From positions 1-64,000 of the IMG/VR virus record IMGVR_UViG_3300046000_003154: DNA of 64,000 nt. One strand, written 5' to 3'. This document shows, piece by piece, positions 6,957 to 26,644 of this stretch. A program made the position numbers and the translations under genes. Position 1 is the first letter of the stretch; each line of letters opens with the position of its first letter. Source of the DNA: a virus. The notes under the pieces were generated by a model that was not told the DNA's origin, did not search any database, and worked only from the letters and a program-made list of their open reading frames with translations.

Positions 6957-8132
6957 ATGTCCTCTTATCTGATCCCTGCTCAAAACGTCGAATCCCTCAA
7001 AGCACAATTCGCAACATTGGTCAAGAAGGCAATCAAGGTTTCTGCTGAGTTGCCTACACTGATCATTGGTGTTGTTCAGATGGTAGAAAAGAAGGATGAT
7101 AACGGCAATAAATTCTTTGCTGAATACTTTCCCGTTGAAGTCACTGGAACTGCTCCAAAACTCTCTGGATGGACGTTTAACGGTACATTAGAGACATTAG
7201 AAGGTACTGACAAGACAATCGTTCGTTCTATCCCTGATGCTCCTATTCCTGATCGTTTTCGTTACGTCAATGCATCCAATTGTGACCATTGTGGTGTCAA
7301 TCGTTTCCGTCTTGCTACCTTTGTGGTGTCCAATGGTACTGAATATAAACAAGTTGGACGTTCATGCTTGAAGGATTTCTTGGGTCATGCTAATCCTGAT
7401 CAAATAGCATCCTATGCACAATATCTGTCATCAATGGATTTTGGTGGATTTGAGAATGAATCTGGCGGTTATGTTGATCCATTGTTTGAAACAGTGAATA
7501 TTCTGAGTGCTGCCGTGAATCTGATTAAAGCTGTTGGATATCGCAAGTCTGAATATGAAAACTCTACTAAGGGTGACATTATTTCCCATTTGTTGGCTAA
7601 GAAACAATCGGAACGTCTTGATATTACTGCTGATGATATTGCCACTGCTGAATTGATTAATGCATGGTTGATCACAAAGTCTGGATCTGAATTCTGGGAT
7701 AACCTCTCTGCATATGCTGGCGAAGAGTATGTCAAGCACAAAGCCATTGGATATCTTGCTGCTGGTGCGATGATGTACCTAAAAGAAGTGGAAGCAATCA
7801 AAGTATTCCAATCAAAGAAGGACGGTATCTCTAATGACCCAATCGCTCCAATTGATACCAAGGTCAAGGTAGAAGGAATTGTGGTGTCTGCTCATCGTTT
7901 TGAACGTGCTGCATACCATTATGGCGACTCTGGTATCTCTCAGGTTCTGGTGATCAAGACCAACGACAATAAACTGATCAAAATGTTCTCTGCCAATCTG
8001 AATATCACTCAAGACTCTACTGTTACAATTTCTGGAAAGATTGGTAACATTCAAACAGAAACATTTGAGAAAAGCCCATTCAAGGGTTGTAATATCACCA
8101 CAATGGCTCCACGTTCACGCATCACTATTTAA
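6957..8132 (+). CDS. hypothetical protein (391 aa)
   Basis: long early ORF, no recognisable motif. Confidence 0.5.
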   Translation: MSSYLIPAQNVESLKAQFATLVKKAIKVSAELPTLIIGVVQMVEKKDDNGNKFFAEYFPVEVTGTAPKLSGWTFNGTLETLEGTDKTIVRSIPDAPIPDRFRYVNASNCDHCGVNRFRLATFVVSNGTEYKQVGRSCLKDFLGHANPDQIASYAQYLSSMDFGGFENESGGYVDPLFETVNILSAAVNLIKAVGYRKSEYENSTKGDIISHLLAKKQSERLDITADDIATAELINAWLITKSGSEFWDNLSAYAGEEYVKHKAIGYLAAGAMMYLKEVEAIKVFQSKKDGISNDPIAPIDTKVKVEGIVVSAHRFERAAYHYGDSGISQVLVIKTNDNKLIKMFSANLNITQDSTVTISGKIGNIQTETFEKSPFKGCNITTMAPRSRITI

Positions 8133-8243
8133 TCATGGAAAACAATATGAAACGTTCTGATATATTTCTGATAATCGCTAATATTCTCTTTTGGTTTGGT
8201 ATTCTCCCCTTCATGGCATATATTAAATAAAGGTATATTAAAA

Positions 8244-8462
8244 ATGAAACACTTTAAAAACTTGTCGGATGACCAATTGATGGAAGAGTACAGGACCATC
8301 AGGAAAGAAATGATAACAATTCGCAATATCAATCCAATGACATTAAATTTCGCCTGTATGTATTTGAACGTCACCACTGAACTGATTGACCGTGGCATTA
8401 CCATACAGGAAAGCAAAGATGGTATATGGCGATTTTTGAGTGATAAACAGGCATCAACATAG
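8244..8462 (+). CDS. hypothetical protein
   Basis: ORF trimmed to ATG 8244 preceded by ggtatattaaaaATG context (repeated at 8461). Confidence 0.3.
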   Translation: MKHFKNLSDDQLMEEYRTIRKEMITIRNINPMTLNFACMYLNVTTELIDRGITIQESKDGIWRFLSDKQAST

Positions 8463-8472
8463 TATATTAAAA

Positions 8473-8715
8473 ATGATTAATATTAAAAAAGTAATAACAG
8501 TTCGTGTGATATACAAATCAGGATATGCACACAATTTTGATGTATATTCAATTAAATTTGAGGATAACGGTAGAGTGATACGATGGACTCCCACAAATGA
8601 TTCTGGTCCATTAATGCTTGGAATTGATAACATTGAAGCTGTTTATTACATCAAACACAAATACAATATCGTCCTTGCTGATTGGGTGAATAAACTACTG
8701 AGAATCTCACAATGA
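8473..8715 (+). CDS. hypothetical protein
   Basis: ATG 8473 in the same gtatattaaaaATG context. Confidence 0.35.
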   Translation: MINIKKVITVRVIYKSGYAHNFDVYSIKFEDNGRVIRWTPTNDSGPLMLGIDNIEAVYYIKHKYNIVLADWVNKLLRISQ

Positions 8716-8936
8716 AACAAAATAAAATAGAAACCCTCAGATATATCATTGGGGATCACGTAGCATTTACTGTTCACAATGCTATTATCATGTCCCGTTG
8801 CGGAATCATGGAACGCTCTAAGGATGAAGTACAAAACTGGCTTGATGTATCCTATTGTCTTGATGCTCCAATCCTAACACCAACAGGATCTAACTCTAAA
8901 GCACATGGTAGATTCATGATCAATTATCACCGTTAG
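8712..8936 (+). CDS. small protein, paralog of 5712..5897
   Basis: QNWLDVSYCLDAP motif. Confidence 0.35.
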   Translation: MKQNKIETLRYIIGDHVAFTVHNAIIMSRCGIMERSKDEVQNWLDVSYCLDAPILTPTGSNSKAHGRFMINYHR

Positions 8937-8944
8937 AGAATCAT

Positions 8945-9118
8945 ATGGAAAAAATTAATATCACTCTGAAAATGCAATGTGAGGACTGTGGACATATTCA
9001 AACTGTCAAGGGTTTTCTGACAAGTGATGGAGGATATTATTTTGGTAGTGCATATTCTTATTGTGATGAATGTGATGGATTACCAAACCCCATAGAAGAA
9101 CCAAAACAAATAGAATAA
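8945..9118 (+). CDS. small zinc-ribbon protein
   Basis: 57-aa ORF with CEDCG...CDECDG (two CxxC pairs); not in ORF track. Confidence 0.35.
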   Translation: MEKINITLKMQCEDCGHIQTVKGFLTSDGGYYFGSAYSYCDECDGLPNPIEEPKQIE

Positions 9119-9141
9119 AACAATCCAATAAACACCACAAA

Positions 9142-9170
9142 AGCCTGACTTCAAACATCAGGCTTTTTGT
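9142..9170 (+). terminator. rho-independent terminator
   Basis: agcctga-cttcaaaca-tcaggct followed by TTTTTG. Confidence 0.55.
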
Positions 9171-9179
9171 ACTCGCTTT

Positions 9180-10638
9180 AGCTTGTACTTTCATATCATC
9201 AAACAGTAATGATTCTCAATAAACACATTCAATAAAACGCTCTACAAGGCATCAATAGACTATTCATGTAGGGTAGCATAGGATAGAACAAAACAACGTA
9301 AGGAAGACCCCATAGAAACGATTTAATAGGGGATAGAGAATCAGTAGGACAATCACTGAAATTTATCTGTAGCTTCGCTGAGAATCACTGAGAATCGCTG
9401 AGAATAAATGTGATAATTTCCCATTTATATTGGACTACTGTGGGACCATTGAAAACCATTGAGAATGTTTTGAGAATCTTTGGTATTTTTTATTACTCTC
9501 TGGTATTCTCTGAGACTCTCTGTTCACTTTCTGTACTGATCAGTCTATATTATTACCAGACAGTATCAGATCACTTCCAGATCCACTCCAAGAACTCTCC
9601 AAGGTTTCTCCCACCTACCACAAATAATCCTCCATGTCAATTCTGATGATCCTCTGATGATCCTCTGTGGCTTCGCTGATATCCACCCAGATCCCTACCA
9701 CAAACAGATCCAGAAGTCAACCAGAACCACATCCAGAACCAGATATCCAGAACCAGAACGAGATCCAGAACCACTATCATAACCATAGCACCCACACCAT
9801 ACCCAGAGCGGCATCCAGCCTATAATGCGTTTTTGAACATTATTACTTGTGTGGTCATGTAGGGTAGGTAGGGTATCTGTAAATATGTGTTTTTATGCTC
9901 TGTAAGTCCTTGATTTATAAGGCTTTTTTTCTGCGTTTTTTCATTATTTTGCGTAATGCCTTTCTGATGATTCTCTGAGGCTTATCTGATGATCCTTGAC
10001 AGACCTTTGATTGTATGATAGGAATCTCTGAGGGTATCTGTGCATCCTTATATAATTGTCTGCTTATATGCTGATGGACTTATGAATGATTCTCTAACAT
10101 ATCTCTGAGGATTTGTCAAGTGTTTTCTGTTGACTCGCTGATAGGATTCGCAGAGGGTTTCCGAATGCCTTCCTAGCACGTTTTGGAGGATTTGTCAAGT
10201 GTTTTCCGAGGGTTTGAAAATAAATAAAAATATATTTGTTTGTTGCGAAAATGGTCGATACTGGAGTGAAATAGTCGGGAAATGCTTGACAGGGGGCCAA
10301 AAAGAGTGTATGGAAGGGTGGTCGGGAGTCCTCTGGGTGGGGCTAAGAATCCTTTGAGCCTCAAATCATTCTCAAAAAATTTTCTAGAACGAAAACCAAA
10401 TCATTCTCAAATTTTTTTCTAATATACCCTCTAACGAAGTCTCTATGGATTTTCTGATAAGCCTCAAATTTTCCCCTACAAAAAGTCTCTAAAAAATTTT
10501 CCCAGAAATTTTTACAGTGGAAATAGACGCCCATAGAGGACAAGCTAAAGCGAGTCCATAAAAAATCCCCTGAGAATTAACTGAGGGGATTCTGGGAGTC
10601 TCTGATGACCTTCTGATGATTCTGTAATGGTATGGGAA
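9180..10638. repeat. gene-free region rich in short degenerate direct repeats (iteron-like)
   Basis: ctgagaatc x3 at 9378-9410; ccagaacc x5 at 9720-9775; ctgatga(t/c)cctctg repeats; ggatttgtcaagtgttttc duplicated at 10108 and 10183. Confidence 0.5.
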
Positions 10639-11334
10639 TTAGACCACACACACTTCTAGAGGTTGCCAAAGATTCACTACTGGCATGATTGGTTTCTCTA
10701 TTACTGGAACAACGGTTTCTTTATCCCCATGATTCGCAAATTCGCCATGATGTTCGTTTCTGAGAGATATAACTTTTGCTTCTGCTTCTTCTAGAGTATC
10801 ATAACACCCTCCCCATATCATCTTATTATTGACACCAACGTTTACACAAAATTTTCCTTTTCTCATGAACACTCCTTTGACACCAGTTTTATTGTTTTTT
10901 GCTGTTTTTCTATTATAAGAATTTTGTGTGTTTGTCGCTAGTCTTAAATTTTTTAATATGGTATTTCTTGGATTGTTGTCATCATGATCGATCACGAAAC
11001 CTTTTTGTGGGAAGCTACCATAAACATACAACCAAATTAAATTATGATTTTTGTATGTGTTATATTCTAGAGTAATTCTTCTATATCCTTTTATGTCTTC
11101 GGAACCAGCATGATCCCCAAAATATACTCCGCATCCTTTTGGTGGATTCTTCCAAGTCAACAAACCTGTCTCTGGATCGTAATTAAAGAAGTATCTGACT
11201 TTTTCCTGAGTGAGTATTGGTTTGATCTTGCCCAACCTGTACTGCACGATATCAATGGCTTTCTGCACAACCTCTGATGACCCACTGACACTATCTAATG
11301 CTTCTTTGATCGTTTCAAGTTCTTCTTTGTCCAT
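10639..11334 (-). CDS. HNH homing endonuclease with AP2 DNA-binding domain
   Basis: GFVIDHDDNNPRNTILKNLRLATNTQN (HNH) and GVKGVF...WGGCYDTLEEA (AP2-like). Confidence 0.75.
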   Translation of the reverse strand: MDKEELETIKEALDSVSGSSEVVQKAIDIVQYRLGKIKPILTQEKVRYFFNYDPETGLLTWKNPPKGCGVYFGDHAGSEDIKGYRRITLEYNTYKNHNLIWLYVYGSFPQKGFVIDHDDNNPRNTILKNLRLATNTQNSYNRKTAKNNKTGVKGVFMRKGKFCVNVGVNNKMIWGGCYDTLEEAEAKVISLRNEHHGEFANHGDKETVVPVIEKPIMPVVNLWQPLEVCVV

Positions 11335-11439
11335 ACACTCTCCTAGAGTTATAAAGGTATCATTTTACATCTTAAATCGATCATTGTCAACTTTATGTAC
11401 GATTTATACAACATTAATGAAAATAGTTGAAAATAGTAC

Positions 11440-11468
11440 TTGACAAGGTTTTTTCATGGTGTTAGAAT
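11440..11468 (+). promoter_or_regulatory. sigma70-like promoter (TTGACA-N17-TAGAAT)
   Basis: TTGACA 11440-11445, TAGAAT 11463-11468. Confidence 0.45.
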
Positions 11469-11508
11469 TCAGGTGTTCCGCTTTGATAATATTTAATTAT
11501 TAGATTGT

Positions 11509-11516
11509 TATAAATA
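11509..11516 (+). promoter_or_regulatory. T4-type late promoter box TATAAATA
   Basis: exact TATAAATA about 30 nt upstream of ATG 11546, ahead of the internal-protein operon. Confidence 0.4.
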
Positions 11517-11545
11517 GTCTCTAGAAGAATAACTAAAACAATAAT

Positions 11546-11749
11546 ATGTGTACAATTAAAACAATGAAGAATATAGAGAACACAATGATTCTATTATGGA
11601 TCGCAATATGGATAACATGTATTACAATCATTCCACATGAAATAATACATTTTATACTTGCTATCATTGCTGGTATTAAATTTTCTGAATGGATGATGAA
11701 ACTAACCCAAATGGTAATATACAAATATGACAAATATAAAAACGTTTAA
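11546..11749 (+). CDS. small membrane protein
   Basis: 67-aa hydrophobic ORF. Confidence 0.3.
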   Translation: MCTIKTMKNIENTMILLWIAIWITCITIIPHEIIHFILAIIAGIKFSEWMMKLTQMVIYKYDKYKNV

Positions 11750-12401
11750 AGAATTTATTTCTGAGGAAGAACGTGTAAATGCTTCTGGAAGAACTCAAGT
11801 AGCAACCACTGGAGGAACTTATGAGAAAACTGGAAAGTTCCTCAAAGATAAGCTACCACCAAAGGCTAAGATTGTTTCTATTGGTGCTGGTCTAGATCAT
11901 ACTCGTAAGGCACTCCATACAGGTCTAGGAGAAAATTCTGGTCATACTGTACACGATATGGAACCTAATCCAGAAGGACGTAAAGAAGCACCAGAATATA
12001 CCAAGGGTGAAGACATTCCTAAGAACCACTATCATGCTGCTGTTTCTCATAATGTCTTGAATGTTGTAGAACCCCATGTAAGAGAACATGTAATGCATTC
12101 TATATTCCATTCTGTTAAAGAAGGTGGTCATGCAGTTATTGGTACTCGTAAATGGAAGGGTGATATTGAGAAGAATAAAAATAGTATTCCCGGTGATGAA
12201 CCAAAGAGTATGTGGGTTAAGCGTAAGAAAAAAGGTGGTGGAGAAGAAACTTCATACCAAAAGGGATTTGATGGAAATGAACTCAAAGACTATGTTGAAG
12301 ATTACGCCAAGAGACATGGACACGAAGTAGAAGTCCATAAAGTACCTCTAGCAGCTTCTGGTGTTCATGTGCATATTAAAAAGAAAAATGAAAAGCTTTA
12401 A
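11727..12401 (+). CDS. putative internal head protein with T4-like capsid-targeting N-terminus
   Basis: N-terminus MTNIKTFKEFISEEE resembles the T4 IP capsid-targeting signal MKTYQEFIAE with an (L/I)xE protease site; first of four translationally coupled genes. Confidence 0.5.
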   Translation: MTNIKTFKEFISEEERVNASGRTQVATTGGTYEKTGKFLKDKLPPKAKIVSIGAGLDHTRKALHTGLGENSGHTVHDMEPNPEGRKEAPEYTKGEDIPKNHYHAAVSHNVLNVVEPHVREHVMHSIFHSVKEGGHAVIGTRKWKGDIEKNKNSIPGDEPKSMWVKRKKKGGGEETSYQKGFDGNELKDYVEDYAKRHGHEVEVHKVPLAASGVHVHIKKKNEKL

Positions 12402-12726
12402 AGAATATATTATCGAAAACTCTTCTCAAAAAGAGAAAGATAATTTCCACTATGATTCATCTAAGTTTGATTCCAATGGTGTGTTCTCTGGAATGGGGCA
12501 TAAATTTTTTGCTGTTGGAGCCACTGTAAAGACACCAGAGATATACAAAGGTGTCGGTCATGGTGTGGTAAAGAATGTGTATAAAAAAAATGGTTCTGGT
12601 GGTGTCAATTATGAAATAGAACATAATTTGCCAAAAGGTCATGAAGACGCATATGATGAAAATGGTGAACCAGACCATAAAAAAACAGCAATTCATTCTG
12701 ATGATGCTTTACAGAGACATAACTAA
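12388..12726 (+). CDS. putative internal head protein (CTS family)
   Basis: N-terminus MKSFKEYIIENS; ORF trimmed to this ATG. Confidence 0.45.
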   Translation: MKSFKEYIIENSSQKEKDNFHYDSSKFDSNGVFSGMGHKFFAVGATVKTPEIYKGVGHGVVKNVYKKNGSGGVNYEIEHNLPKGHEDAYDENGEPDHKKTAIHSDDALQRHN

Positions 12727-13205
12727 TGAAAACCTTTAAAGATTTCCTAAATGAAGAAAAATCTGTAGGTAAGAAAATGGGACACGATCTATACGTCCAC
12801 AAAGACTATGCTGAGAACCATCCAGACATTCCCCATGAAGGACTCCAAAAAGCCAAGAGTCACCTTCCTAAAGATTTTGATTACACTGCTGTTAAATATA
12901 ATAAAAAAGAAGGTTCTCATTCTTTTATTCATTCTCCAGACTTTGACACTGCTGACGAACCAACTGTAGGAAAATCTATTAAAGTTCATGCATCAGGAGA
13001 AACAAAGGTAAACAATCCTCCAAAAGATCCTCTAATCTGGCATGGAAAACATCAATGGGTTAAAGATGATCATAAAGGATTTGATGTAGAAAAATCTAAA
13101 GAACGTCATAAACATTGGAAGTCTGTTCTTGGTGTTAATAAAGATGTGTCAAGCAGAATTGGTCGTAAATCATATTGGGACAAATGGACTAAAGAAAACC
13201 TATGA
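12726..13205 (+). CDS. putative internal head protein (CTS family)
   Basis: N-terminus MKTFKDFLNEEK; ATGA overlaps with neighbours. Confidence 0.5.
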   Translation: MKTFKDFLNEEKSVGKKMGHDLYVHKDYAENHPDIPHEGLQKAKSHLPKDFDYTAVKYNKKEGSHSFIHSPDFDTADEPTVGKSIKVHASGETKVNNPPKDPLIWHGKHQWVKDDHKGFDVEKSKERHKHWKSVLGVNKDVSSRIGRKSYWDKWTKENL

Positions 13206-14110
13206 AGTCATTTAAAGATTATAATAAAGAAAAAGAATCCAAGAAAATTCCAACACTTTCTTGGGACTCTTCTTTTGCCGAACAAAGACCAAAAGGTAAA
13301 AAAAGAGAATCAGTGTTATCATGGGATTCTGCCTTTGCTGATGTTCGTGATAAGAAACCAATCAAAGAAGCAAAAGAGAAATTTAATTTAGATACTTCAT
13401 ACAAATCGCATGAATCACAAGGTTTCAATAAAGTTGGTTGTTCATATGACGAAAATTTTCATGGACATTCTCAAGTAAAACCTCAAAGTTTAACCAAAGA
13501 ACATGAAAATGCTATTAGACATTATTCAGAGGATTCTTCTGGTAACGATGAACATGGACACGCATCTTCTGGTAATATGAATGCATGGTTAAGAAATAAA
13601 GAAGGTGATGGAAAACAAAATATTCGTGGTAAACATGATCCAAAGAATGTTGAAAAATCTGTCAAGAAATTATCATCTGCTTTTACTCGTGAAAATACCA
13701 ACCGCAAACCATTAACGACATATGGTGGAGTTCCAGAACACATTGGAAATAAATTAGAGAATAGTGGAAAAGGTGCTGAACATCATTTAGCTGGATTCAC
13801 ATCAACATCATCTTCTGTTCGTACTGCTAAACATTTTGCTCGTACCTATAATGGTCGTGATAATTCTAAAGTGCATCACATAGTAAAATATGATGTAAAG
13901 CCTCATGCTGGATTATCTATAGCAGGACATTCAACCTATCCAGAAAATGAAGTAATGTTGCATCATGGGGCTAAAGTCAAATATTCTCATACAACAGAAC
14001 ATGATGATGGTGAAGATGGAACTATTAAAGTGCATCATGTTACTGTATCACCAAGACATAAGAAATTGTCAGAATATGGTGAATATCACGATACTTCAAA
14101 TTTTTCTTGA
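13202..14110 (+). CDS. ADP-ribosyltransferase with capsid-targeting N-terminus (Alt-like)
   Basis: N-terminus MKSFKDYNKEKE; R ... GFTSTSSS (STS motif) ... ENEVML (ExE motif) = R-S-E ART signature. Confidence 0.55.
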   Translation: MKSFKDYNKEKESKKIPTLSWDSSFAEQRPKGKKRESVLSWDSAFADVRDKKPIKEAKEKFNLDTSYKSHESQGFNKVGCSYDENFHGHSQVKPQSLTKEHENAIRHYSEDSSGNDEHGHASSGNMNAWLRNKEGDGKQNIRGKHDPKNVEKSVKKLSSAFTRENTNRKPLTTYGGVPEHIGNKLENSGKGAEHHLAGFTSTSSSVRTAKHFARTYNGRDNSKVHHIVKYDVKPHAGLSIAGHSTYPENEVMLHHGAKVKYSHTTEHDDGEDGTIKVHHVTVSPRHKKLSEYGEYHDTSNFS

Positions 14111-14135
14111 CAATTCTCTAAAAATTCTCTAAAAT
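14107..14135 (+). promoter_or_regulatory. sigma70-like promoter (TTGACA-N17-TAAAAT)
   Basis: TTGACA 14107-14112, TAAAAT 14130-14135. Confidence 0.4.
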
Positions 14136-14167
14136 CCCTCTAACTAAAAACTAGAGGGATTTTTTAT
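14136..14167 (+). terminator. rho-independent terminator after the ART gene
   Basis: ccctcta-actaaaaac-tagaggg followed by ATTTTTTAT. Confidence 0.55.
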
Positions 14168-14651
14168 GAATATCTTTGTTGTGCATCCAGATCCTATTGT
14201 TTCTGCTCAGATGCTAAATGATAAACACGTAGTAAAAATGATCTTAGAAAGTGCTCAGATTCTTTCTACTGTCAATTTTAAAAATAATAAAAAAGCTACT
14301 TATAAACCAACGCATCACAATCACCCATGTACGCTTTGGGCTGGTAAGACTGTGGATAACTACAACTGGTTAAAACAACATGGAATTGCTCTTTGTGAGG
14401 AATATACCAACAGATACAAGAAAATTCATAAAAGTATGCAATATTACTTTACAGAATACAATATTCCTGATACAATTAAAGACATTGGATTAACAGAATT
14501 CGTCCAAGCAATGCCAGAACAGTATCGTGACATTAATCCTGTGTTGGCATATCGTAAGTATTATATTGGTGAAAAGTCTGGATTTTCTAAGTGGACAAAC
14601 AGAGAAATTCCTAGTTGGTTTGAGTACAGAAATATTGAAATGGAGATGTAA
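14166..14651 (+). CDS. pyrimidine-dimer DNA glycosylase (denV / endonuclease V)-like
   Basis: N-terminal IFVVHPDPIVSAQML and C-terminal AYRKYYIGEK resemble T4 DenV (INLTLVSELADQHL ... WYKYYGKA) as recalled from memory. Confidence 0.45.
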   Translation: MNIFVVHPDPIVSAQMLNDKHVVKMILESAQILSTVNFKNNKKATYKPTHHNHPCTLWAGKTVDNYNWLKQHGIALCEEYTNRYKKIHKSMQYYFTEYNIPDTIKDIGLTEFVQAMPEQYRDINPVLAYRKYYIGEKSGFSKWTNREIPSWFEYRNIEMEM

Positions 14652-20048: not shown

Positions 20049-20357
20049 CATTGTTCTTTAAAAATTTAAGTCTAATAATTCTTTGACGTTGAGTTCATAA
20101 CTCCACCTGTCGGGATGACATTGTGTGTCAAAGAATTTTACTATAATATATTCACAATAGTGTGTTATAGTAAGATTGGGATATAGTGTAATAGATAGCA
20201 CAACAGACTTTGACTCTGTTAGTTTGGGTTTGAACCCCGATATCCCTGCCAGTAATTTTGGAAGATGAAGGAGCAAGGTGCTTCAACTGTTTTGAAAGCA
20301 GATTGTGTCAGAAATGGCATGGATTTCGAGTATACCCGTCTTCCTCCAAAAAATATG

Positions 20358-20442
20358 GATAGTTGCCTGAGTGGTTAAAGGAGCAATTTGCTAAATTGTC
20401 GGTGAGAAATCGCCGCATTGGTTCGAATCCAATACTATCCTC
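20358..20442 (+). tRNA. tRNA-Ser (GCU), class II long variable arm, CCA encoded
   Basis: hand-folded: acceptor ggatagt/actatcc, anticodon loop ttGCTaa, T-loop ggttcgaatcc. Confidence 0.6.
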
Positions 20443-20451
20443 CAAAATATG

Positions 20452-20526
20452 TGCGTGTGACCGAGTGATCCAAGGTAGCTGTCTGCAAAACAGTAAAATC
20501 GTCAGTTTGAATCTGACCATGCACTC
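20452..20526 (+). tRNA. tRNA-Cys (GCA)
   Basis: hand-folded: acceptor gtgcgtg/catgcac, anticodon loop ctGCAaa, T arm gtcag-tttgaat-ctgac, CCA encoded. Confidence 0.5.
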
Positions 20527-20535
20527 CAAAGATAT

Positions 20536-20543
20536 ATAAATAG
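20536..20543 (+). promoter_or_regulatory. T4-type late promoter TATAAATA
   Basis: exact TATAAATA 33 nt upstream of ATG 20576. Confidence 0.45.
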
Positions 20544-20575
20544 ATTATAAACACTATTTACAAGGAAATTTTAGA

Positions 20576-22408
20576 ATGTTAAATTTTAAACAATTTATTA
20601 ATGAATCTGATAAACACGATGATCAAAACGATGAAGTCGAATATGAAGGTTTGGATGAATTATTATCACATCATTTTTATAATAATGATGTGCCACCTGA
20701 AATTGAGAAACATATATTGTCACACAAACCTTTAAATGAAGAAGAGGAAACAGATACTGATAAATTTGTTCATGGAGAGGTAAAAAAAGCTTTAAAAAGA
20801 CATAAAGAAGTTTACGGAAAAGATATTGGAGAACCAGTTAAACCAGAAGATGCTCCAGAGATTGGTAGAAAAGCTGTGGAAGAACATTTTAATAAATCTC
20901 CAGAAGAACAACATGCATCATTAAAATTAGCTGCTAAAAGAATTGGTCATGTTGCTTATGGTGATAAGAATATAAACCCAAAAACTTTAGCTAAAAGAAT
21001 ATCTAGTGGAAATAGAAAAACTGATACTGTTATTAATAATAAATTAGTAAAATATAAAGGGAAATTAACTTCTGCTGTTTCTAGTTATGGTGGTGCTGCT
21101 GGAAATTATGAACATCATCATTCCGGTGAAAATGATGATGTTAAACACACAAAAGTAACAACATGTGAACATGCAACTTCTGGGTGTATGTCAGGTGGAA
21201 AAATTAACACAACAGATAATAAAGGAGCAGAAAAAGCCATTAAAGTTGGTGCTTCTTGTTTAGCTAAAAGTGGTGCTTATAATTTTCCCGGAGTTAGAAA
21301 AAAAGTTCAAATAAATTCTCATATTAGAAGTGGACATGATACTATAAAAGATCATGCTATATTAGTTGCACATCATTTACAAAATGAAGCGAAAGATGCA
21401 GAAAAAAAAGATACTGTTCATTCTGTTAGAGGACAAACAACAGACGAAAGAGGAAAAGATATTAGTGCTATAGCTAACGAAACTGCTAAACATGATCCAT
21501 CAGTTAAAAAAAATACTGTTTTGTTTGGTTATACAAAATCGCCAAAAGAAGCATTAGATGCGTCTAGAAAAACAAAAAAAGGTGATGGTGTTCCAGAAGT
21601 TATAGCACATAGTCATCCCGGTCCAGCAGTCTATAGAGATGGAAATGGAAAAGCCCAATTAAACGTTAAAACTATTCAAAGATTAAAAGGTCTTAGACAT
21701 GCCCATGAAACAGCAAAAAAAGAAGGTCTTCATATAAATGATTATGTTGTTGCTGGTGGTAAATCACTTGATGAAAACGGAAATGGAATTGATGGTAGTG
21801 TATATTCACAACTAAGAACACCCGGAAAGAAAGCAACAGCAGAGAAAAAAGCTTCCCATGCTGTTGAAAAAGCTAGATTTAATAGGGTTGATGGATCAAT
21901 TAAAAAGGTTAGATATTGGGATTTACATCACAGTGGTGAATTGAAACCCGGAGAAAAGCCTGACCATCATGATGAAAAAACTGGAACTGGGCATACAACT
22001 GTTGTTCAGGATGGAAAACAATTAAAAATTGGATATCATGATAGAGATGCTAATGTTGGCGATACAGATTCTGGTCATACAACATATGCAGAAAGACATG
22101 ATGGTAGATATGCTGATGGAGAAAATAAGAAATCTTCGTCACACGTAACTGCTAGTGTCTCTTCTGGGTCTAATATTGCTAAATCTGGAGCGTTTAAAAA
22201 TGCATTAACACATCAAATGGAAGAACATTTTGATATGCATGGTGATAAGAAAAGACATAGTGCTCCCGGAACACTTCATGAAGCACATCCCGATATGATG
22301 AAAGAAGCTGGTCATAAATACGAAGATAAAGATACTACATATAAAAATCATGTAGATGGTGAAGACACAACACCAAAACGTAAAGTTATACCAATCAAAG
22401 CACAATAA
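20576..22408 (+). CDS. large His/Lys-rich putative internal head protein (CTS family)
   Basis: N-terminus MLNFKQFINESDK matches the CTS consensus of the 11727-14110 operon. Confidence 0.5.
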   Translation: MLNFKQFINESDKHDDQNDEVEYEGLDELLSHHFYNNDVPPEIEKHILSHKPLNEEEETDTDKFVHGEVKKALKRHKEVYGKDIGEPVKPEDAPEIGRKAVEEHFNKSPEEQHASLKLAAKRIGHVAYGDKNINPKTLAKRISSGNRKTDTVINNKLVKYKGKLTSAVSSYGGAAGNYEHHHSGENDDVKHTKVTTCEHATSGCMSGGKINTTDNKGAEKAIKVGASCLAKSGAYNFPGVRKKVQINSHIRSGHDTIKDHAILVAHHLQNEAKDAEKKDTVHSVRGQTTDERGKDISAIANETAKHDPSVKKNTVLFGYTKSPKEALDASRKTKKGDGVPEVIAHSHPGPAVYRDGNGKAQLNVKTIQRLKGLRHAHETAKKEGLHINDYVVAGGKSLDENGNGIDGSVYSQLRTPGKKATAEKKASHAVEKARFNRVDGSIKKVRYWDLHHSGELKPGEKPDHHDEKTGTGHTTVVQDGKQLKIGYHDRDANVGDTDSGHTTYAERHDGRYADGENKKSSSHVTASVSSGSNIAKSGAFKNALTHQMEEHFDMHGDKKRHSAPGTLHEAHPDMMKEAGHKYEDKDTTYKNHVDGEDTTPKRKVIPIKAQ

Positions 22409-22419
22409 GGAACAATAAA

Positions 22420-23136
22420 ATGCAACAAAACTTAACAGAAGAACAAATCCAAGAAAAGGAAGAGTTGTTCTTTACGATTCTTGAACAATTCATTGATGAC
22501 AATTTTGAAGTAGATCCAGACTATGAAATGACAGAAGATGATGCTTATATTCTATCTATTGTTAAAGAACATTTTGACGAAAACTTTAGATTCCCAACAT
22601 TACAAGAGTCTGCTTTAGAAGCAATTACTGGTTGGGATGTTAACGAAGCTTTATACGAAGAAATGGCTTTAGCTATTCTTGACGAAACTGTAGGTACATT
22701 TATCGCTGGTGCTCGACACGGTATTTCTCACTTCTTAGCAAAACGTAAAGAAGCTGGTGCTACTAAGTCATATGATAAGGCTCATGCTGCTAATAAAGTT
22801 GCTAAAACAGTTGCCTCTGATACAACTAAAGCACATAAGACTGCTGTAAAACAAAAAACTTATGGTGGTGGCGCTACTGGTGCTTTTAAATCTGCCGTTG
22901 CTGGTGGTAAAGTACAAGCTAAACAAAATAAAGCAGTAAAAGCAACAGCAGTTCTAGCGAAGACTAAAGATAAGTTTCATGCAGCTAGTAATAAAAAAGC
23001 TGAAGTTGGCGCAAAGAGAACTGGTTTAGCGAATAAGATTGATACAGGTATTGCGAACGTCAAGAATCGTGTCAAGTCTGCTATAACCACTGGCGCACAA
23101 AGAATTGGTGGATTTTTGGGTAGGGCAATGGGGTAA
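22420..23136 (+). CDS. acidic-N / Ala-Lys-rich-C protein
   Basis: 238-aa ORF; C-terminal AK-rich low-complexity region. Confidence 0.4.
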   Translation: MQQNLTEEQIQEKEELFFTILEQFIDDNFEVDPDYEMTEDDAYILSIVKEHFDENFRFPTLQESALEAITGWDVNEALYEEMALAILDETVGTFIAGARHGISHFLAKRKEAGATKSYDKAHAANKVAKTVASDTTKAHKTAVKQKTYGGGATGAFKSAVAGGKVQAKQNKAVKATAVLAKTKDKFHAASNKKAEVGAKRTGLANKIDTGIANVKNRVKSAITTGAQRIGGFLGRAMG

Positions 23137-23167
23137 TATAAAAGTATTTTAAAATACTAAAATAAAA

Positions 23168-23197
23168 CCCCAAGACCTAAAAATCTTGGGGTTTTGT
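23168..23197 (+). terminator. rho-independent terminator
   Basis: ccccaaga-cctaaaaa-tcttgggg + TTTTGTCATTTT. Confidence 0.55.
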
Positions 23198-23208
23198 CAT
23201 TTTGGGTG

Positions 23209-23237
23209 TTGACAAAGGGTTTAAAAACTCATACAAT
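23209..23237 (+). promoter_or_regulatory. sigma70-like promoter for tRNA cluster (TTGACA-N17-TACAAT)
   Basis: TTGACA 23209-23214, TACAAT 23232-23237. Confidence 0.5.
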
Positions 23238-23303
23238 ACACTCATGCGATAACAAATGATTCAGTTAGTTATCAAAAGTTCATTAAAAATATAATTGAGA
23301 TTT

Positions 23304-23375
23304 ATCCGGTGAGACTGCTGGTGTGGTCAGTTGCCTTTCAAGCAACCTAGAGGGGATCGTAACCCCTACCGGATA
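23304..23375 (+). tRNA. tRNA-Glu (UUC)
   Basis: hand-folded cloverleaf: acceptor atccggt/accggat, anticodon stem gttgc/gcaac, loop ctTTCaa, CCA encoded. Confidence 0.6.
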
Positions 23376-23657
23376 CCATAATTAAACATTGGTGTAAATG
23401 TGCATACTTGGTATAGGTCTAGAACTATATGTAAACAAGAGGAACACTCGGCTCAGAAAGGCAGATGAGAGTATGTTTAATTATGGTATAAGGTGATTCA
23501 TCCCACCAGTTATTCAAAGGCATGGAGTAATTCCCAGAAGTATGAATAACGTTGAGAGATAATATTACTCAATGAATAATCTGGAGGATGGTCGGTTCGA
23601 TTTCCGACACCAGAGATATGAAATTTCCCCTTACGAAGTTTCATATTGATAAATTTT

Positions 23658-23728
23658 GGGATCGTAATTCAATGATAGAATAGTCGGCTTTTAACCGATT
23701 TACGAGAGTTTGATTCTCTCCGGTCCTA
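23658..23728 (+). tRNA. tRNA-Lys (UUU)
   Basis: hand-folded: loop ctTTTaa, T arm gagag-tttgatt-ctctc, CCA encoded; acceptor has two G-U pairs. Confidence 0.5.
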
Positions 23729-23738
23729 CCAGAATTGT

Positions 23739-23810
23739 GGGTTAGTAGCTTAATGGTAAAGCAGTGAACTCATAATTCATTGAGTGTAGGTTCAATTCCT
23801 ACCTAACCCA
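23739..23810 (+). tRNA. tRNA-Met/Ile2-type (CAU)
   Basis: acceptor gggttag/ctaaccc, loop ctCATaa, T-loop ggttcaattcc, CCA encoded. Confidence 0.65.
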
Positions 23811-24080
23811 CCATAAATCGGGTAACGTCATGTTATCTGTTAATCCTTAGAATAAGTCTAAGGCGTGTTAATCGGATAATCACCAGATTGTCTTTCGATA
23901 TCTACGTTAAAGATATGGCTAAAGATCGTAATGCTAAATATTTTGTAAGAAAAAGCTGACCCCTAGAAATAGGACAGGCATTGACTAGGTTACTAAGGTC
24001 GAGATATCTGTCTCTGAGACTCCGAATGTGGTAGAATTCCTAGCAAGTCATATAAGTCGCCCTGAGATATGACAACTATT

Positions 24081-24155
24081 TGGTCTTAAAGTGTTCATGG
24101 ACGCACACAACACTGTCAATGTTGAAGAGTGGGGATCGTTACCCCCTAAGACCGC
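24081..24155 (+). tRNA. tRNA-Asp (GUC), imperfect T stem
   Basis: acceptor tggtctt/aagaccg, anticodon stem caaca/tgttg, loop ctGTCaa. Confidence 0.4.
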
Positions 24156-24310
24156 CAATATATACTGCGGGTAGTGTAGCAACAGTTCTGTCTCATAAGC
24201 ACGAACCATCGGAGGTGCAAGTCCTTCACCCGCATCCATTTTAGGATTCATTCAGCACATAAATACGGCATTGTATAAAAGCGAATCCTGTTGATTAATA
24301 AAGGTATATT

Positions 24311-25165
24311 ATGACAATTTATGGAATGACAACATCAAGAGTTTCCCAAAGGTTTACTAAGTTAGCTATTGATTCTTTTTTTGAGAATACTAAATTTAAA
24401 CCCAAAGATCTTTTCATATTAGTTGACAATGATAATTCAATTGATTTTAAATTGGATAATAGAGTATTACATATTAGAAATGACACCCCACAGTATTTTG
24501 CTGTTAATGCTAATAAAGTGTTAAAGTTTGCTATAGAGAATAAAGCAGATTTAGTGTTGATGAATAATGATATAGTTCTAACCCCTAATTGGTTGGACGC
24601 ATTAGAGAAGTATGACAACAAGATTACAGTCCCTAGTTGTAATGAGCATATCGAAATGAGTCTTGGTGGACTTACTTTGAAACCAGCAATGGAATTAGAT
24701 GAAGTGTTAAGTTATCGTAAAGAGTTGGATGAAATTTCGGATACTATTATAAGTTATCCAGAGAATAGAAATAAATTTGTATCTTTATTCAGAATGGGCT
24801 TGTATGTAATGAGGATTCCGTATACAATATCATCTATCGTAGGTTTAATGGATGAAGAGTATGGTCGTGGTGGTGGAGAGGACATTGATTACAGGATTAG
24901 AACTTGGAAAGCAGGTTTTGATACTTCTGTAGTTTTGGATTCTTTTATTATTCATTTTATGGGTAAATCAACATGGCGATCAGGAGAGTCTAGTTTTGAT
25001 ACTAGAAAGTGTGAAGAACAATATCAAAAACACTTCTTGGAAAAATGGGGCGAGAATATCACCAGAGTATTTTTAGAGGGTGATGTAGGAACCATGAGAA
25101 GATTTGGTGTTGAGAATTTGATGATGAATAGAGAGTATAAGAAAGTTTTAGATATTATTCCGTAG
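24311..25165 (+). CDS. putative glycosyltransferase-like protein
   Basis: 284-aa ORF; LVLMNNDIVLTPNWL (DxD-like). Confidence 0.3.
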   Translation: MTIYGMTTSRVSQRFTKLAIDSFFENTKFKPKDLFILVDNDNSIDFKLDNRVLHIRNDTPQYFAVNANKVLKFAIENKADLVLMNNDIVLTPNWLDALEKYDNKITVPSCNEHIEMSLGGLTLKPAMELDEVLSYRKELDEISDTIISYPENRNKFVSLFRMGLYVMRIPYTISSIVGLMDEEYGRGGGEDIDYRIRTWKAGFDTSVVLDSFIIHFMGKSTWRSGESSFDTRKCEEQYQKHFLEKWGENITRVFLEGDVGTMRRFGVENLMMNREYKKVLDIIP

Positions 25166-25234
25166 AATTCAAGCATGGTGCATGGACCTGACTGTTAATC
25201 AGAGATTAGCTGAGATCGTTACTCAGATACGGAG
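25159..25234 (+). tRNA. tRNA-Asn (GUU), overlaps the stop codon of the upstream CDS
   Basis: anticodon arm cctga-ctGTTaa-tcaga, T arm ctgag-atcgtta-ctcag, CCA encoded; acceptor has one mismatch. Confidence 0.4.
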
Positions 25235-25366
25235 CCAAATAGAATCAAGTGGAAAGCAAGAGCCACAAAGTAAATGCTGATCATCATGGCAATTCGGTGA
25301 TCTATGCAAAGCCATAGCATAGTGGCAGCGGGGTAAGAGTCCTAACTTAGAGTTGTCAGATATTTT

Positions 25367-25447
25367 GGGTGTATGTCCGAGAGGCCGAAGGAGTCTGACT
25401 GTAAATCAGATCGTAACAGCACGGTGGTTCGAATCCATCTGCACCCA
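25367..25447 (+). tRNA. tRNA-Tyr (GUA), long variable arm
   Basis: acceptor gggtgta/tgcaccc, loop ctGTAaa, T-loop ggttcgaatcc, CCA encoded. Confidence 0.65.
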
Positions 25448-25457
25448 CCAAGAATTA

Positions 25458-25529
25458 GGTGATATGACGTAGACGGATGCGTATTGGTTTCATAAGCCAA
25501 AGAGATTGGTTCGATACCAATTATCACCA
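25458..25529 (+). tRNA. tRNA-Met/Ile2-type (CAU), second copy
   Basis: acceptor ggtgata/tatcacc, loop ttCATaa, T-loop ggttcgatacc, CCA encoded. Confidence 0.65.
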
Positions 25530-25727
25530 CCAGTTACGCAGGATCAGTTCGAACGGAATTGATTTCATGAGTCAATTCATCCTGCGACCATTTATGGGAC
25601 TAAAAATATAATTCAGACATGAATTTACACAGCAATAAAAAAAGTCCCACCATTTTAGGATAGGTTCTGCAAAAAACTCAGCAAAACTTTTTGGTTGTCT
25701 TGCGACAAAAACTATCCTGTTGTATTC

Positions 25728-25798
25728 GCTCTTATAGTATATTGGTATTACAATTGCCTTGTAAGCATTTGAATGAGGTTCGATTCCTTGTTGGAGCA
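25728..25798 (+). tRNA. tRNA-Thr (UGU)
   Basis: acceptor gctctta/ttggagc (one mismatch), loop ctTGTaa, T-loop ggttcgattcc, CCA encoded. Confidence 0.45.
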
Positions 25799-25850
25799 CC
25801 AAAAAACTCTCCCTAACATATGGAGTATAATAGGATAAGTTATATGTTTT

Positions 25851-25931: not shown

Positions 25932-25936
25932 CCAAA

Positions 25937-26012: not shown

Positions 26013-26023
26013 CCAGATAAATA

Positions 26024-26098: not shown

Positions 26099-26120
26099 CC
26101 ATTATTATTAAAAGGATGTT

Positions 26121-26643: not shown

Positions 26644-26644
26644 T

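What the first reader, a model, noticed from the sequence alone, without database searches (positions are those of the whole stretch)
11440..14165. Operon of four proteins sharing a T4-like capsid-targeting N-terminus, one an ADP-ribosyltransferase: candidate injected effector set
Four translationally coupled genes (11727, 12388, 12726, 13202; ATGA/TAATG overlaps) all begin MK(S/T)FK(D/E)(F/Y)...(L/I)xE: MTNIKTFKEFISEEE, MKSFKEYIIENS, MKTFKDFLNEEK, MKSFKDYNKEKE. This matches the ~10-aa capsid-targeting sequence MKTYQEFIAE of T4 internal proteins IPI/II/III and Alt, which the prohead protease cleaves after (L/I)xE. The last gene has an R / STS / ExE ADP-ribosyltransferase signature, as T4 Alt does. 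The three small members have no recognisable domains. The bodies behind the signal look hypervariable, like the T4 IP loci where IPI* blocks GmrSD. This suggests a diversifying set of head-packaged proteins injected with the DNA to neutralise host defences. Both an early sigma70-like and a late TATAAATA promoter precede the operon.
Basis: partly seen in the sequence, partly recalled or inferred. Interest (0 to 1): 0.8.

Follow-up and report, generated by a model that had tools for sequence, protein, structure and literature searches.

The report
Phage head-packaged injected enzyme set
An uncultured T4-like phage encodes four neighbouring proteins, plus a fifth 6.5 kb downstream, that all start with T4's short "pack me into the head" tag; two are enzymes (an ADP-ribosyltransferase and a methyltransferase), so this is most likely a new cargo set for a known protein-injection system.

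Summary
Four consecutive genes (11727, 12388, 12726, 13202) start with M-K-(S/T)-F-K-(D/E)-(F/Y). That motif occurs only four times in the six-frame translation of the window, where 0.08 are expected, and all four are at these N-termini. It matches T4 IPI (MKTFKEF) and IPII/IPIII (MKTYQEFIAE) at the residues T4 genetics found critical (4 and 7 for targeting, 8 and 10 for cleavage). Metagenomic homologues of all four proteins keep the tag. Some family members lack it, so it is a modular tag.

- The 302-aa protein is a PF03496 R-S-ExE ADP-ribosyltransferase, the same Pfam family as T4 Alt.
- The 159-aa protein has a confident model with no match in PDB.

The operon sits just upstream of a denV-family gene, as T4 ipIII-ipII does. 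It follows a TATAAATA late-promoter motif and ends in a terminator hairpin. A fifth tagged gene (20576, 610 aa) has its own TATAAATA. Related phages carry different tagged gene sets.

Verdict: a new member of the known T4 capsid-targeting/internal-protein system, with enzymatic cargo. Packaging, cleavage, injection and targets are all inferred, not shown.

The parts
11440..11468 (+). sigma-70-like promoter motif, TTGACA-17 nt-TAGAAT with a TG extension
   Evidence: 11 of 12 matches. It lies in the intergenic region between the divergent HNH gene and the operon. This is a motif match only.
11509..11516 (+). T4-type late promoter motif TATAAATA
   Evidence: There are only 5 copies in the window (10.6 expected by shuffling). 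Two of them precede the two loci with tagged genes.
11546..11749 (+). Doubtful 67-aa ORF with hydrophobic segments and an HEIIH motif, overlapping the g1 start
   Evidence: weak Peptidase_M50/SprT hits. No homologue in related loci. It may be a spurious ORF in the 5' leader.
11727..12401 (+). g1, 224 aa: N-terminal tag MTN-IKTFKEFISE (predicted cleavage after E13, 11727-11765) followed by a class I SAM-dependent methyltransferase fold
12388..12726 (+). g2, 112 aa: tag MKSFKEYIIE (predicted cleavage after E10) followed by a small conserved domain of unknown function
   Evidence: 12 clusters among 1.84 billion representatives. 5 of 12 carry the tag. No Pfam, PHROG or PDB match.
12726..13205 (+). 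g3, 159 aa: tag MKTFKDFLNE (predicted cleavage after E10) followed by a domain whose fold has no PDB match
13202..14110 (+). g4, 302 aa: tag MKSFKDY, then a propeptide-like region with two LSWDSxFAxxR repeats (13256-13288, 13316-13348) and a conserved IKE56 (13361-13369), then an R-S-ExE ADP-ribosyltransferase domain (R131 at 13592-13594; STS at 13802-13810; ENE at 13943-13951)
   Evidence: PF03496, 31.5 bits against a cut-off of 23.4. Invariant catalytic residues. The profile hits Vis toxin, HopU1 and ExoT. [ILV]xE at the aligned position in 20 of 21 sequences.
14131..14163 (+). Intrinsic-terminator-like hairpin (12-bp stem followed by a U run) closing the operon
   Evidence: -14.8 kcal/mol, z = -4.6, 0 of 200 shuffles fold as well.
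14166..14651 (+). denV-family pyrimidine-dimer glycosylase gene; synteny anchor (T4 order is ipIII-ipII-denV)
   Evidence: PF03013, E 1e-12. T4 map. Pairwise identity to T4 DenV is only 23%.
20535..20542 (+). Second TATAAATA late-promoter motif, 33 nt upstream of (41 nt start-to-start from) the fifth tagged gene
20576..22408 (+). g5, 610 aa: fifth tagged protein, MLNFKQFINE (predicted cleavage after E10); His/Lys-rich; borderline Pfam GP88 hit
   Evidence: The homologue in L003 starts MLSFKTFLKE. GP88 scores 34.4 bits in the L019 homologue.
10639..11334 (-). HNH homing-endonuclease gene flanking the cassette
   Evidence: PF13392, E 7e-13. phrog_99.

Best explanation
This is a late-expressed operon of a T4-like myovirus. 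It encodes four proteins that carry the T4 internal-protein capsid-targeting sequence (CTS), and a fifth such gene lies at 20576.

**Proposed mechanism.**
1. Transcription starts from the TATAAATA late promoter, and possibly also from the sigma-70-like promoter. Translation of the four genes is coupled. Transcription stops at the hairpin at 14131-14163.
2. The N-terminal ~10 residues (aromatic at positions 4 and 7) bind the scaffolding core, so the proteins are built into the prohead.
3. The gp21-type prohead protease removes the tag after (I/L)xE:
   - g1 after ISE13
   - g2 after IIE10
   - g3 after LNE10
   - g5 after INE10
   - the ART, which has NKE at 8-10, most likely after the conserved IKE56, which would remove a 56-residue propeptide.
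4. The mature proteins stay in the DNA-filled head and are ejected with the DNA into the next host.
5. There the ART ADP-ribosylates host protein(s), probably on arginine (ExE motif; nearest solved relatives are arginine-specific toxins). The methyltransferase modifies an unknown substrate. g2, g3 and g5 act as binders or accessory factors. The net effect would be host take-over and/or neutralisation of defences before any phage gene is expressed.

**Shown by sequence and models:** the genes, the tag, its conservation, the enzyme folds, the synteny and the regulatory motifs.

**Inferred by homology to T4:** targeting, cleavage, packaging and injection.

**Unknown:** substrates and biological effect.
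For: **The tag**
- The motif is found only at these N-termini.
- It matches T4 IPI/II/III at the residues shown genetically to matter: 4 and 7 for targeting, 8 and 10 for processing (PMC9026906).

**The tag is modular and conserved**
- ART family: 19 of 23 have the aromatic pair.
- MT family: 57 of 92 have the full motif, and 79 of 92 have [LI]xE before the conserved core.
- g3 family: 33 of 71 with the tag; the others start directly at the core.
- g2 family: 5 of 12.
- AF2 places the tag outside the folded domains (pLDDT 58-61 against >90).

**Phage context**
- T4-type baseplate genes gp5, 6, 7, 8 and 48 are present. gp6 is 35% identical to those of Melnitz and other marine T4-like phages (38% over less of the protein for HTVC008M).
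- The operon lies directly upstream of a denV-family gene, as T4 ipIII-ipII does.
- Two of the five TATAAATA copies in the window sit before the two tagged loci.

**The enzymes**
- ART: PF03496 above the gathering score, the same family as T4 Alt. The catalytic R / STS / ExE residues are invariant. [ILV]xE at residues 54-56 in 20 of 21 sequences.
- Independent support for g1: homologous methyltransferase domains are embedded in >1200-aa proteins encoded between portal-side genes and the major capsid gene. These are mycobacteriophage Myrna gp97 and Roseobacter phage CRP-3 gp36, which also carries a cell-wall hydrolase domain.

**Related contigs carry other tagged cargo**
- A GNAT acetyltransferase in L003 and five consecutive tagged genes in L018.

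**Shared composition**
- The tagged proteins have unusual composition: His 6.7-8.2% against a window median of 2.3%, and low hydrophobicity.
Against: - There are no virion proteomics, and no prohead protease or scaffold gene lies in the window. Their presence is inferred from the T4 core genome.
- A strong sigma-70-like promoter also precedes the operon, so early, non-packaged expression is possible.
- The ART lacks I/L at tag position 8, and only 5 of 23 family members have the full motif. Cleavage at IKE56 is a prediction.
- g1 has a 3-residue extension before the tag (ATA where relatives have ATG).
- The ART shows only weak direct similarity to Alt (hhalign probability 19%; no tblastn hit in the phage collection).
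- Pfam methyltransferase hits for g1 are below threshold (17.9 against 27).
Confidence: 0.8

Rival explanations
1. The proteins are targeted into the head by the tag but act mainly as structural or DNA-condensing core components (basic 'stuffing' like bulk T4 IPs), not as effectors acting on the host.
For: - The proteins are Lys-rich and basic: pI 9.2 for g1, g3 and g4.
- The tagged proteins share an unusual composition.
- T4 IPs are abundant DNA-associated basic proteins (PMC9026906).
Against: - Two members have intact catalytic signatures that are invariant across their families (ART R/STS/ExE; methyltransferase G-x-G and acidic residue). A purely structural role does not predict this.
- T4 Ip1-3 themselves are now known to be specific GmrSD inhibitors (PMC12373910).
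- g2 is not basic (pI 6.4).
Confidence: 0.08
2. The proteins are ordinary early cytoplasmic host-takeover proteins (like T4 ModA/ModB). The shared N-terminus would serve another purpose, such as a recognition tag for timed degradation or processing, or a common interaction helix, and would not mediate packaging.
For: - A sigma-70-like promoter with 11 of 12 matches lies at 11440.
- T4 has non-packaged ARTs.
- No virion data exist.
Against: - The tag matches the experimentally defined T4 CTS at exactly the functionally critical positions (PMC9026906).
- The late promoter motif precedes both tagged loci.
- The position matches the T4 ip genes.
- The g1 methyltransferase domain occurs in head-module giant proteins of unrelated phages.
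Confidence: 0.08
3. The conserved 5' sequence acts at the nucleic-acid level, as a translation-initiation enhancer, a leader or a recombination box. The peptide similarity would be a by-product.
For: The DNA ATGAAAnnnTTTAAAGA is similar in the four genes. AT-rich 5' coding ends favour initiation.
Against: - Position 3 (S/T) uses four unrelated codons, and position 8 uses ATT, ATT and CTA.
- Across the homologues, conservation follows residue class at positions 4, 7, 8 and 10, while the other positions vary freely: MKTFSAFISE, MLSFKNFLSE, MISFKQYLEE.
- (L/I)xE is retained even in family members with a different leader, for example ...YIALVE|ERVN.
Confidence: 0.03

Closest known systems
T4 internal proteins IPI, IPII, IPIII and their capsid-targeting sequence (Mullaney & Black 1996; reviewed in PMC9026906 and PMC3012670; Ip1-3 as GmrSD inhibitors, PMC12373910)
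   Same: - An N-terminal ~10-residue tag with aromatic residues at 4 and 7 and (I/L)xE at 8-10 (IPI MKTFKEF; IPII/III MKTYQEFIAE).
- Unrelated protein bodies share only the tag.
- The genes are clustered next to a denV-family gene, in a T4-like phage, behind a late-promoter motif.
- The gene set differs between related phages.
   Different: - The host phage is only distantly related to T-even phages (gp6 about 35% identical to marine T4-likes; no DNA match in 50,697 phage records).
- The cargo is larger and includes predicted enzymes (ART, SAM methyltransferase, and GNAT in a relative) rather than 8-20 kDa inhibitor proteins.
- The proteins are His-rich.
- No body is homologous to Ip1-3.
- Packaging is not demonstrated.
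T4 Alt (head-packaged, injected ADP-ribosyltransferase that modifies RNA polymerase alpha)
   Same: - Same Pfam family, PF03496 (Alt 124 bits, g4 31.5 bits).
- R-S-ExE catalytic signature.
- Predicted to be packaged and processed by the prohead protease and injected with the DNA.
   Different: - g4 is 302 aa against 682 aa and lacks Alt's ~370-residue N-terminal region.
- It carries the IP-type tag rather than Alt's MELITE propeptide.
- It has a propeptide with LSWDS repeats.
- It is not encoded next to baseplate genes.
- Direct similarity is weak (hhalign probability 19%). Its nearest solved relatives by sequence are Vis, HopU1 and ExoT.
- The target is unknown.
Polyvalent / MuF-linked head-packaged effector proteins of phages (Iyer et al. 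2017, PMC5512222; 2022, PMC9503650)
   Same: - The concept is the same: modifying enzymes (ARTs, methylases, peptidases) are delivered from the capsid at injection.
- The g1 methyltransferase domain is found inside giant proteins encoded beside portal and capsid genes, in Myrna gp97 and CRP-3 gp36.
   Different: - Here each effector is a separate small protein addressed by a cleavable tag. It is not a domain of one large polypeptide or a MuF fusion.
- The methyltransferase is not the DarB-type DNA adenine methylase-helicase dyad.
KVP40.0371 / phrog_16075 and the C-terminal domain of NCBIfam TIGR04096 (DNA phosphorothioation-associated putative methyltransferase)
   Same: The g3 body (residues 11-153) is homologous to the N-terminal half of KVP40.0371 (33% identity) and matches profile positions 320-461 of TIGR04096 (E 2e-5; up to 5e-7 for other family members).
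   Different: - g3 is a stand-alone domain with a T4-type tag.
- The scores are far below the TIGR04096 family cut-off (23 against 150 bits), so this is domain-level homology only.
- No function is known for this domain.

Membership tests
T4-type CTS-tagged internal head proteins | N-terminal ~10-residue tag with hydrophobic/aromatic residues at positions 4 and 7 (targeting determinants) | tested here: met
   F4 and F/Y7 are present in g1 (after a 3-residue extension), g2, g3, g4 and g5. The determinants are taken from PMC9026906.
T4-type CTS-tagged internal head proteins | Prohead-protease processing site (L/I)xE at the end of the tag (positions 8 and 10) | tested here: met
   - ISE (g1), IIE (g2), LNE (g3) and INE (g5).
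- g4 has NKE, so it fails at position 8. It does have a conserved IKE56, with [ILV]xE at that position in 20 of 21 homologues.
- The criterion is therefore met for 4 of 5 proteins, with an alternative site for the ART.
- Actual cleavage was not tested.
T4-type CTS-tagged internal head proteins | Encoded by a phage with T4-type head assembly (gp21 protease, gp22 scaffold core, gp23 capsid) | not testable with these tools
   The window shows T4-type baseplate genes but holds no head genes. gp21-23 are core genes of all T4-related phages according to PMC9026906 and PMC3037559, so their presence is inferred.
T4-type CTS-tagged internal head proteins | Late expression together with head genes | tested here: inconclusive
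   TATAAATA motifs lie at 11509 and 20535, directly upstream of both tagged loci, out of only 5 in the window. These are motif matches only. A sigma-70-like motif is also present.
T4-type CTS-tagged internal head proteins | Physical presence in the virion and ejection into the host | not testable with these tools
   This needs virion mass spectrometry or injection assays.
ADP-ribosyltransferase, R-S-E clade (Pfam PF03496 ADPrib_exo_Tox) | Profile match above the curated threshold | tested here: met
   31.5 bits against 23.4. 15 of 23 homologues carry a precomputed PF03496 hit. The profile hits Vis toxin at E 1.5e-4.
ADP-ribosyltransferase, R-S-E clade (Pfam PF03496 ADPrib_exo_Tox) | Catalytic Arg, Ser-Thr-Ser and Glu-x-Glu motifs | tested here: met
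   R131, S201-T202 (S203 nearly invariant) and E248/E250 are invariant in the 23-sequence alignment.
ADP-ribosyltransferase, R-S-E clade (Pfam PF03496 ADPrib_exo_Tox) | ART fold and NAD+-dependent activity | not tested
Activity needs biochemistry.
Orthologue of T4 Alt | Alt architecture (~680 aa, N-terminal domain plus C-terminal ART) and detectable direct similarity | tested here: not met
   - g4 is 302 aa against 682 aa.
- There is no tblastn hit in 50,697 phage records.
- hhalign probability is 19% over 111 columns.
- The N-terminus differs (MELITE).
- g4 is a functional analogue, not an orthologue.
Class I SAM-dependent methyltransferase (g1) | Rossmann-type methyltransferase fold | tested here: met
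Class I SAM-dependent methyltransferase (g1) | SAM-binding motif I (GxG) and an acidic residue after strand 2 | tested here: met
   In the 45-sequence alignment G53 and G55 are invariant and A54 nearly so (IGAGLD), and E79 is invariant.
Class I SAM-dependent methyltransferase (g1) | Sequence-profile membership in a curated methyltransferase family | tested here: inconclusive
   Methyltransf_23 scores 17.9 bits against a cut-off of 27. Some homologues carry a precomputed PF13489 hit. PDB profile hits have E 0.2-1. The substrate is unknown.

The most novel reading that the evidence does not exclude
In environmental T4-like phages, the IP-type tag may have become a general address label for a toolkit of macromolecule-modifying enzymes: an arginine ART, a SAM methyltransferase and a GNAT acetyltransferase. 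These would act at the instant of DNA entry.

Within this operon, the methyltransferase (g1) and the g3 domain may work together. In bacteria, the g3 domain forms the C-terminal domain of a methyltransferase linked to DNA phosphorothioation. The pair could act as an injected modification system that pre-empts a host defence, a DarB-like strategy built from different parts.

The shared His/Lys-rich, low-hydrophobicity composition would then be an adaptation to storage in, and ejection from, the DNA-filled head.
Probability: 0.15. Interest if true: 0.7.

Novelty: new member of a known kind. Interest (0 to 1): 0.5.

Why it matters
- **How far the tag reaches.** The T4 capsid-targeting tag is preserved almost residue for residue in an uncultured lineage whose baseplate protein is only about 35% identical to that of any cultured phage.
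- **A way to find injected proteins.** A 10-residue motif can therefore be used to list proteins likely to be injected in environmental T4-like genomes.
- **New cargo classes.** The cargo extends the known small Ip inhibitors and Alt to a compact ART, a class I methyltransferase, a GNAT and a domain with no PDB match. Each is a concrete candidate host-takeover or anti-defence effector to test.
- **Engineering.** CTS-based protein delivery might be portable beyond T-even phages.

Tried and rejected
- **DNA similarity.** Megablast of the operon against 50,697 phage records found nothing.
- **Protein similarity in the phage collection.** tblastn of the ART, g2 and the 610-aa protein found nothing.
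- **Curated families.** PHROGs gave no family for g1, g2 or g4. NCBIfam gave nothing for g1, g2, g4 or g5.
- **Split-methyltransferase idea.** I tested whether g3 also sits inside the Myrna gp97 and CRP-3 gp36 giant proteins, and whether the C-terminal half of KVP40.0371 is a g1-type methyltransferase. Both were negative by hhalign. g1 does not match TIGR04096. The split-methyltransferase idea therefore rests on weak evidence.
- **The 67-aa HExxH ORF at 11546.** It has no homologue in the related loci and is left as doubtful.
- **Further tagged genes.** A loose-motif scan over all start codons found only the five. MKHFKNLSDD at 8243 does not fit positions 7, 8 and 10.
- **RNA and repeats.** Rfam found nothing in 8000-14400, and no relevant tandem repeats were found.
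- **Prohead protease gene.** I could not retrieve it for this lineage, because the fetch tools return at most 10 kb of flank and the window lacks head genes.


Full report
**1. What is in the sequence**

The + strand carries four tightly packed genes:

| Gene | Coordinates | Length |
|---|---|---|
| g1 | 11727-12401 | 224 aa |
| g2 | 12388-12726 | 112 aa |
| g3 | 12726-13205 | 159 aa |
| g4 | 13202-14110 | 302 aa |

- Public gene callers predict the same four products.
- The overlaps are 14 nt (g1/g2), 1 nt (TAATG, g2/g3) and 4 nt (ATGA, g3/g4).
- The N-termini are MTNIKTFKEFISE, MKSFKEYIIE, MKTFKDFLNE and MKSFKDYNKE.
- The pattern K[ST][FY][KQ][DE][FY] occurs four times in the whole six-frame translation of the 64-kb window, only at these four starts. 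The composition-based expectation is 0.085, and 200 shuffles gave a mean of 0.06 and a maximum of 2.
- Conservation is at the peptide level. The Ser/Thr at position 3 is encoded by ACG, AGC, ACC and TCA.

**2. The phage**

- The window encodes T4-type baseplate proteins (gp5-, gp6-, gp7-, gp8- and gp48-like) and 21 tRNAs.
- The gp6 homologue is at best about 35-38% identical to cultured phages such as Methylophilales phage Melnitz, Pelagibacter phage HTVC008M and cyanomyoviruses.
- The operon has no DNA match in 50,697 phage records.
- It is therefore an uncultured, deep-branching T4-like myovirus. The same operon occurs in a second sample (L016).

**3. Comparison with the T4 capsid-targeting sequence**

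- Read from the T4 record, IPII and IPIII begin MKTYQEFIAE. IPI begins MKTFKEFTSTTTPVSTITE.
- T4 genetics summarised in PMC9026906 shows three things. The first 10 residues of IPIII suffice for head targeting. Residues 4 and 7 carry the targeting information. Residues 8 and 10 direct cleavage by the prohead protease.
- g1 (after a 3-residue MTN extension), g2 and g3 have F at 4, F/Y at 7, I/L at 8 and E at 10.
- g4 has F4, Y7 and E10 but Asn at 8.

**4. Evolutionary test of the tag**

| Family | Clusters found | Tag conservation |
|---|---|---|
| ART (g4) | 23 | Nearly all begin MK(S/T)FK... |
| Methyltransferase-like (g1) | 92 | 57 carry the full aromatic4-aromatic7-[LIVM]8-x-E10 motif; 79 have [LI]xE within 25 residues, directly before the conserved core (R)VN(D/N)T..TQVATTGGTY |
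| g3 | 71 | 33 with the full motif; others start directly at the core (MGHDLY...) |
| g2 | 12 | 5 with the motif |

- In the g1 family, even members with a different leader keep [LI]xE directly before the core (for example ...YIALVE|ERVN).
- The tag is therefore a modular N-terminal address added to unrelated domains.
- AlphaFold models place it outside the folded bodies (pLDDT about 60 against >90).

**5. The ART (g4)**

- Pfam PF03496 scores 31.5 bits against a cut-off of 23.4.
- T4 Alt belongs to the same family (124 bits).
- R131, S201-T202(-S203) and E248-x-E250 are invariant.
- The nearest solved relatives by profile are the arginine-specific Vis toxin, HopU1 and ExoT.
- Similarity to Alt itself is weak. 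g4 lacks Alt's N-terminal 370 residues, so it is an analogue and not an orthologue.
- Residues 1-56 are a variable region with one or two LSWDSSF(A/R/G)E.R repeats. This region ends in a conserved K-x-[ILV]-K-E, with [ILV]xE at that position in 20 of 21 sequences.
- I propose this as the real protease site, giving a 56-residue propeptide. Long or multiply cut propeptides are known for T4 IPI (19 residues), T4 gp23 (65 residues) and giant-phage head proteins (PMC9026906; PMC5694885).

**6. The other bodies**

*g1*
- The G-x-G glycines and the acidic residue after strand 2 are invariant. Sequence profiles alone are sub-threshold.
- Its only relatives in cultured phages are domains inside >1200-aa proteins encoded next to portal and capsid genes. 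These are mycobacteriophage Myrna gp97 and Roseobacter phage CRP-3 gp36, which also has a cell-wall hydrolase domain.
- This position is typical of internal or ejected virion proteins, so it independently suggests the domain is capsid cargo.

*g3*
- It is homologous to the N-terminal half of KVP40.0371.
- It is also homologous to the C-terminal domain of NCBIfam TIGR04096, a putative methyltransferase associated with DNA phosphorothioation.
- Some relatives are fused to GNAT domains.

*g2*
- g2 belongs to a rare family with no detectable relatives of known function.

**7. Regulation and boundaries**

- A sigma-70-like motif (11 of 12 matches, TG-extended) lies at 11440.
- TATAAATA lies at 11509. 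This octamer occurs only five times in the window.
- A 12-bp hairpin followed by a U run at 14131-14163 closes the operon (-14.8 kcal/mol, z -4.6).
- Immediately downstream is a denV-family gene. This reproduces the T4 order ipIII-ipII-denV, although the DenV proteins are only 23% identical.

**8. Beyond the finding**

- A fifth tagged gene lies at 20576-22408: 610 aa, MLNFKQFINE|S, with a borderline Pfam GP88 hit. A second TATAAATA starts 41 nt upstream of its ATG.
- Its homologue in a related 168-kb contig starts MLSFKTFLKE.
- Related contigs carry different tagged sets:

| Locus | Tagged genes |
|---|---|
| L003 | GNAT + ART upstream of denV and RNA ligase |
| L005 | ART + a distant methyltransferase, upstream of denV |
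| L018 | Five consecutive tagged genes, including the g1 and g3 families |
| L019 | g3 and another tagged gene, with a GP88 homologue between them |
| L017 | Methyltransferase, ART and another |

- The cassette content is therefore plastic, while each family is conserved.
- Homing-endonuclease genes flank the cassette in three of these phages.
- The five tagged proteins are among the seven most His-rich proteins in the window (6.7-8.2% against a median of 2.3%) and have the lowest hydrophobic content. This holds across the families but not in the Myrna and CRP-3 carriers. It is unexplained.

**9. Interpretation**

The best explanation (confidence about 0.8) is a set of T4-type, CTS-addressed head proteins. 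They would be built into the prohead core, trimmed by the gp21-type protease and injected with the DNA. An arginine-type ART and a methyltransferase would be the enzymatic cargo.

Targeting, cleavage, packaging and injection are inferred from homology to the T4 system. Substrates are unknown.

Rivals and their confidence:
- Purely structural role: 0.08.
- Non-packaged early proteins: 0.08.
- RNA-level signal: 0.03.

**10. Novelty**

- CTS-tagged internal proteins, their diversity among T-even phages and their anti-restriction role are established (PMC3012670, PMC9026906, PMC12373910).
- Head-packaged ARTs are predicted to be widespread in myoviruses (PMC9503650).
- This is therefore a new member of a known kind.
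- It is noteworthy for three reasons: the depth of tag conservation, the enzymatic cargo classes, and the use of the tag as a discovery handle.

Noticed in passing
window 20535-22408 (+): A fifth gene carries the same N-terminal tag: 610 aa, MLNFKQFINE|S, His/Lys-rich, with a borderline Pfam GP88 hit. It is preceded by TATAAATA starting 41 nt upstream of its ATG and sits among the tRNA genes. Homologues in L003 (MLSFKTFLKE) and L019 (GP88, 34 bits).
   Followed up: partly
window 11546-11749 (+): A 67-aa ORF lies between the late-promoter motif and g1. It has hydrophobic segments and an HEIIH (HExxH) motif, and weak Peptidase_M50/SprT hits. It has no homologue in the related loci and may be spurious.
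   Followed up: partly
window 11727-14110 and 20576-22408; protein families P0001-P0198: The tagged proteins are strongly His-rich (6.7-8.2% against a window median of 2.3%), Lys-rich and low in hydrophobic residues. This holds across the homologue families: g3 family members with the tag average 5.9% His, and those without average 3.0%. Unexplained.
   Followed up: partly
window 13256-13288 and 13316-13348: The ART pro-region contains two copies of the peptide repeat LSWDSxFAxxR. One or two copies are conserved across the ART family. The function is unknown.
   Followed up: partly
window 10639-11334 (-); L003 9184-9696; L005 11966-12778: Homing-endonuclease genes (HNH, GIY-YIG) flank the tagged-gene cassette in three related phages. 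They might promote cassette exchange.
   Followed up: no
window 12726-13205; NCBIfam TIGR04096: The g3 body matches the C-terminal domain of a putative methyltransferase associated with DNA phosphorothioation (E 2e-5; 5e-7 for untagged family members). g3-family genes sit next to g1-type methyltransferase genes in L018 and near one here.
   Followed up: partly
L013 (Myrna gp97) and L014 (Roseobacter phage CRP-3 gp36): The g1-type methyltransferase domain is embedded in >1200-aa proteins encoded beside portal and capsid genes. Myrna gp97 is annotated 'tape measure', which looks doubtful given its position next to the major head protein gene.
   Followed up: partly
window 8132-10639: This 2.5-kb stretch has no ORF of 100 aa or more. 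It contains short TCTGATGAT-type and AACCAG repeats and has no Rfam match.
   Followed up: partly
window 22420-23136 (+): A 238-aa protein lies right after the 610-aa tagged gene. It has a very acidic N-terminal half and an Ala/Lys-rich C-terminal half, is conserved in L003 and matches no family. It could be head-associated.
   Followed up: no
window 11736-11738: g1 has ATA (Ile) where homologues have the ATG of MKTF... An upstream ATG gives a 3-residue extension (MTN) in front of the tag.
   Followed up: partly
window 20177-31420: A cluster of 21 tRNA genes is interspersed with protein genes.
   Followed up: no
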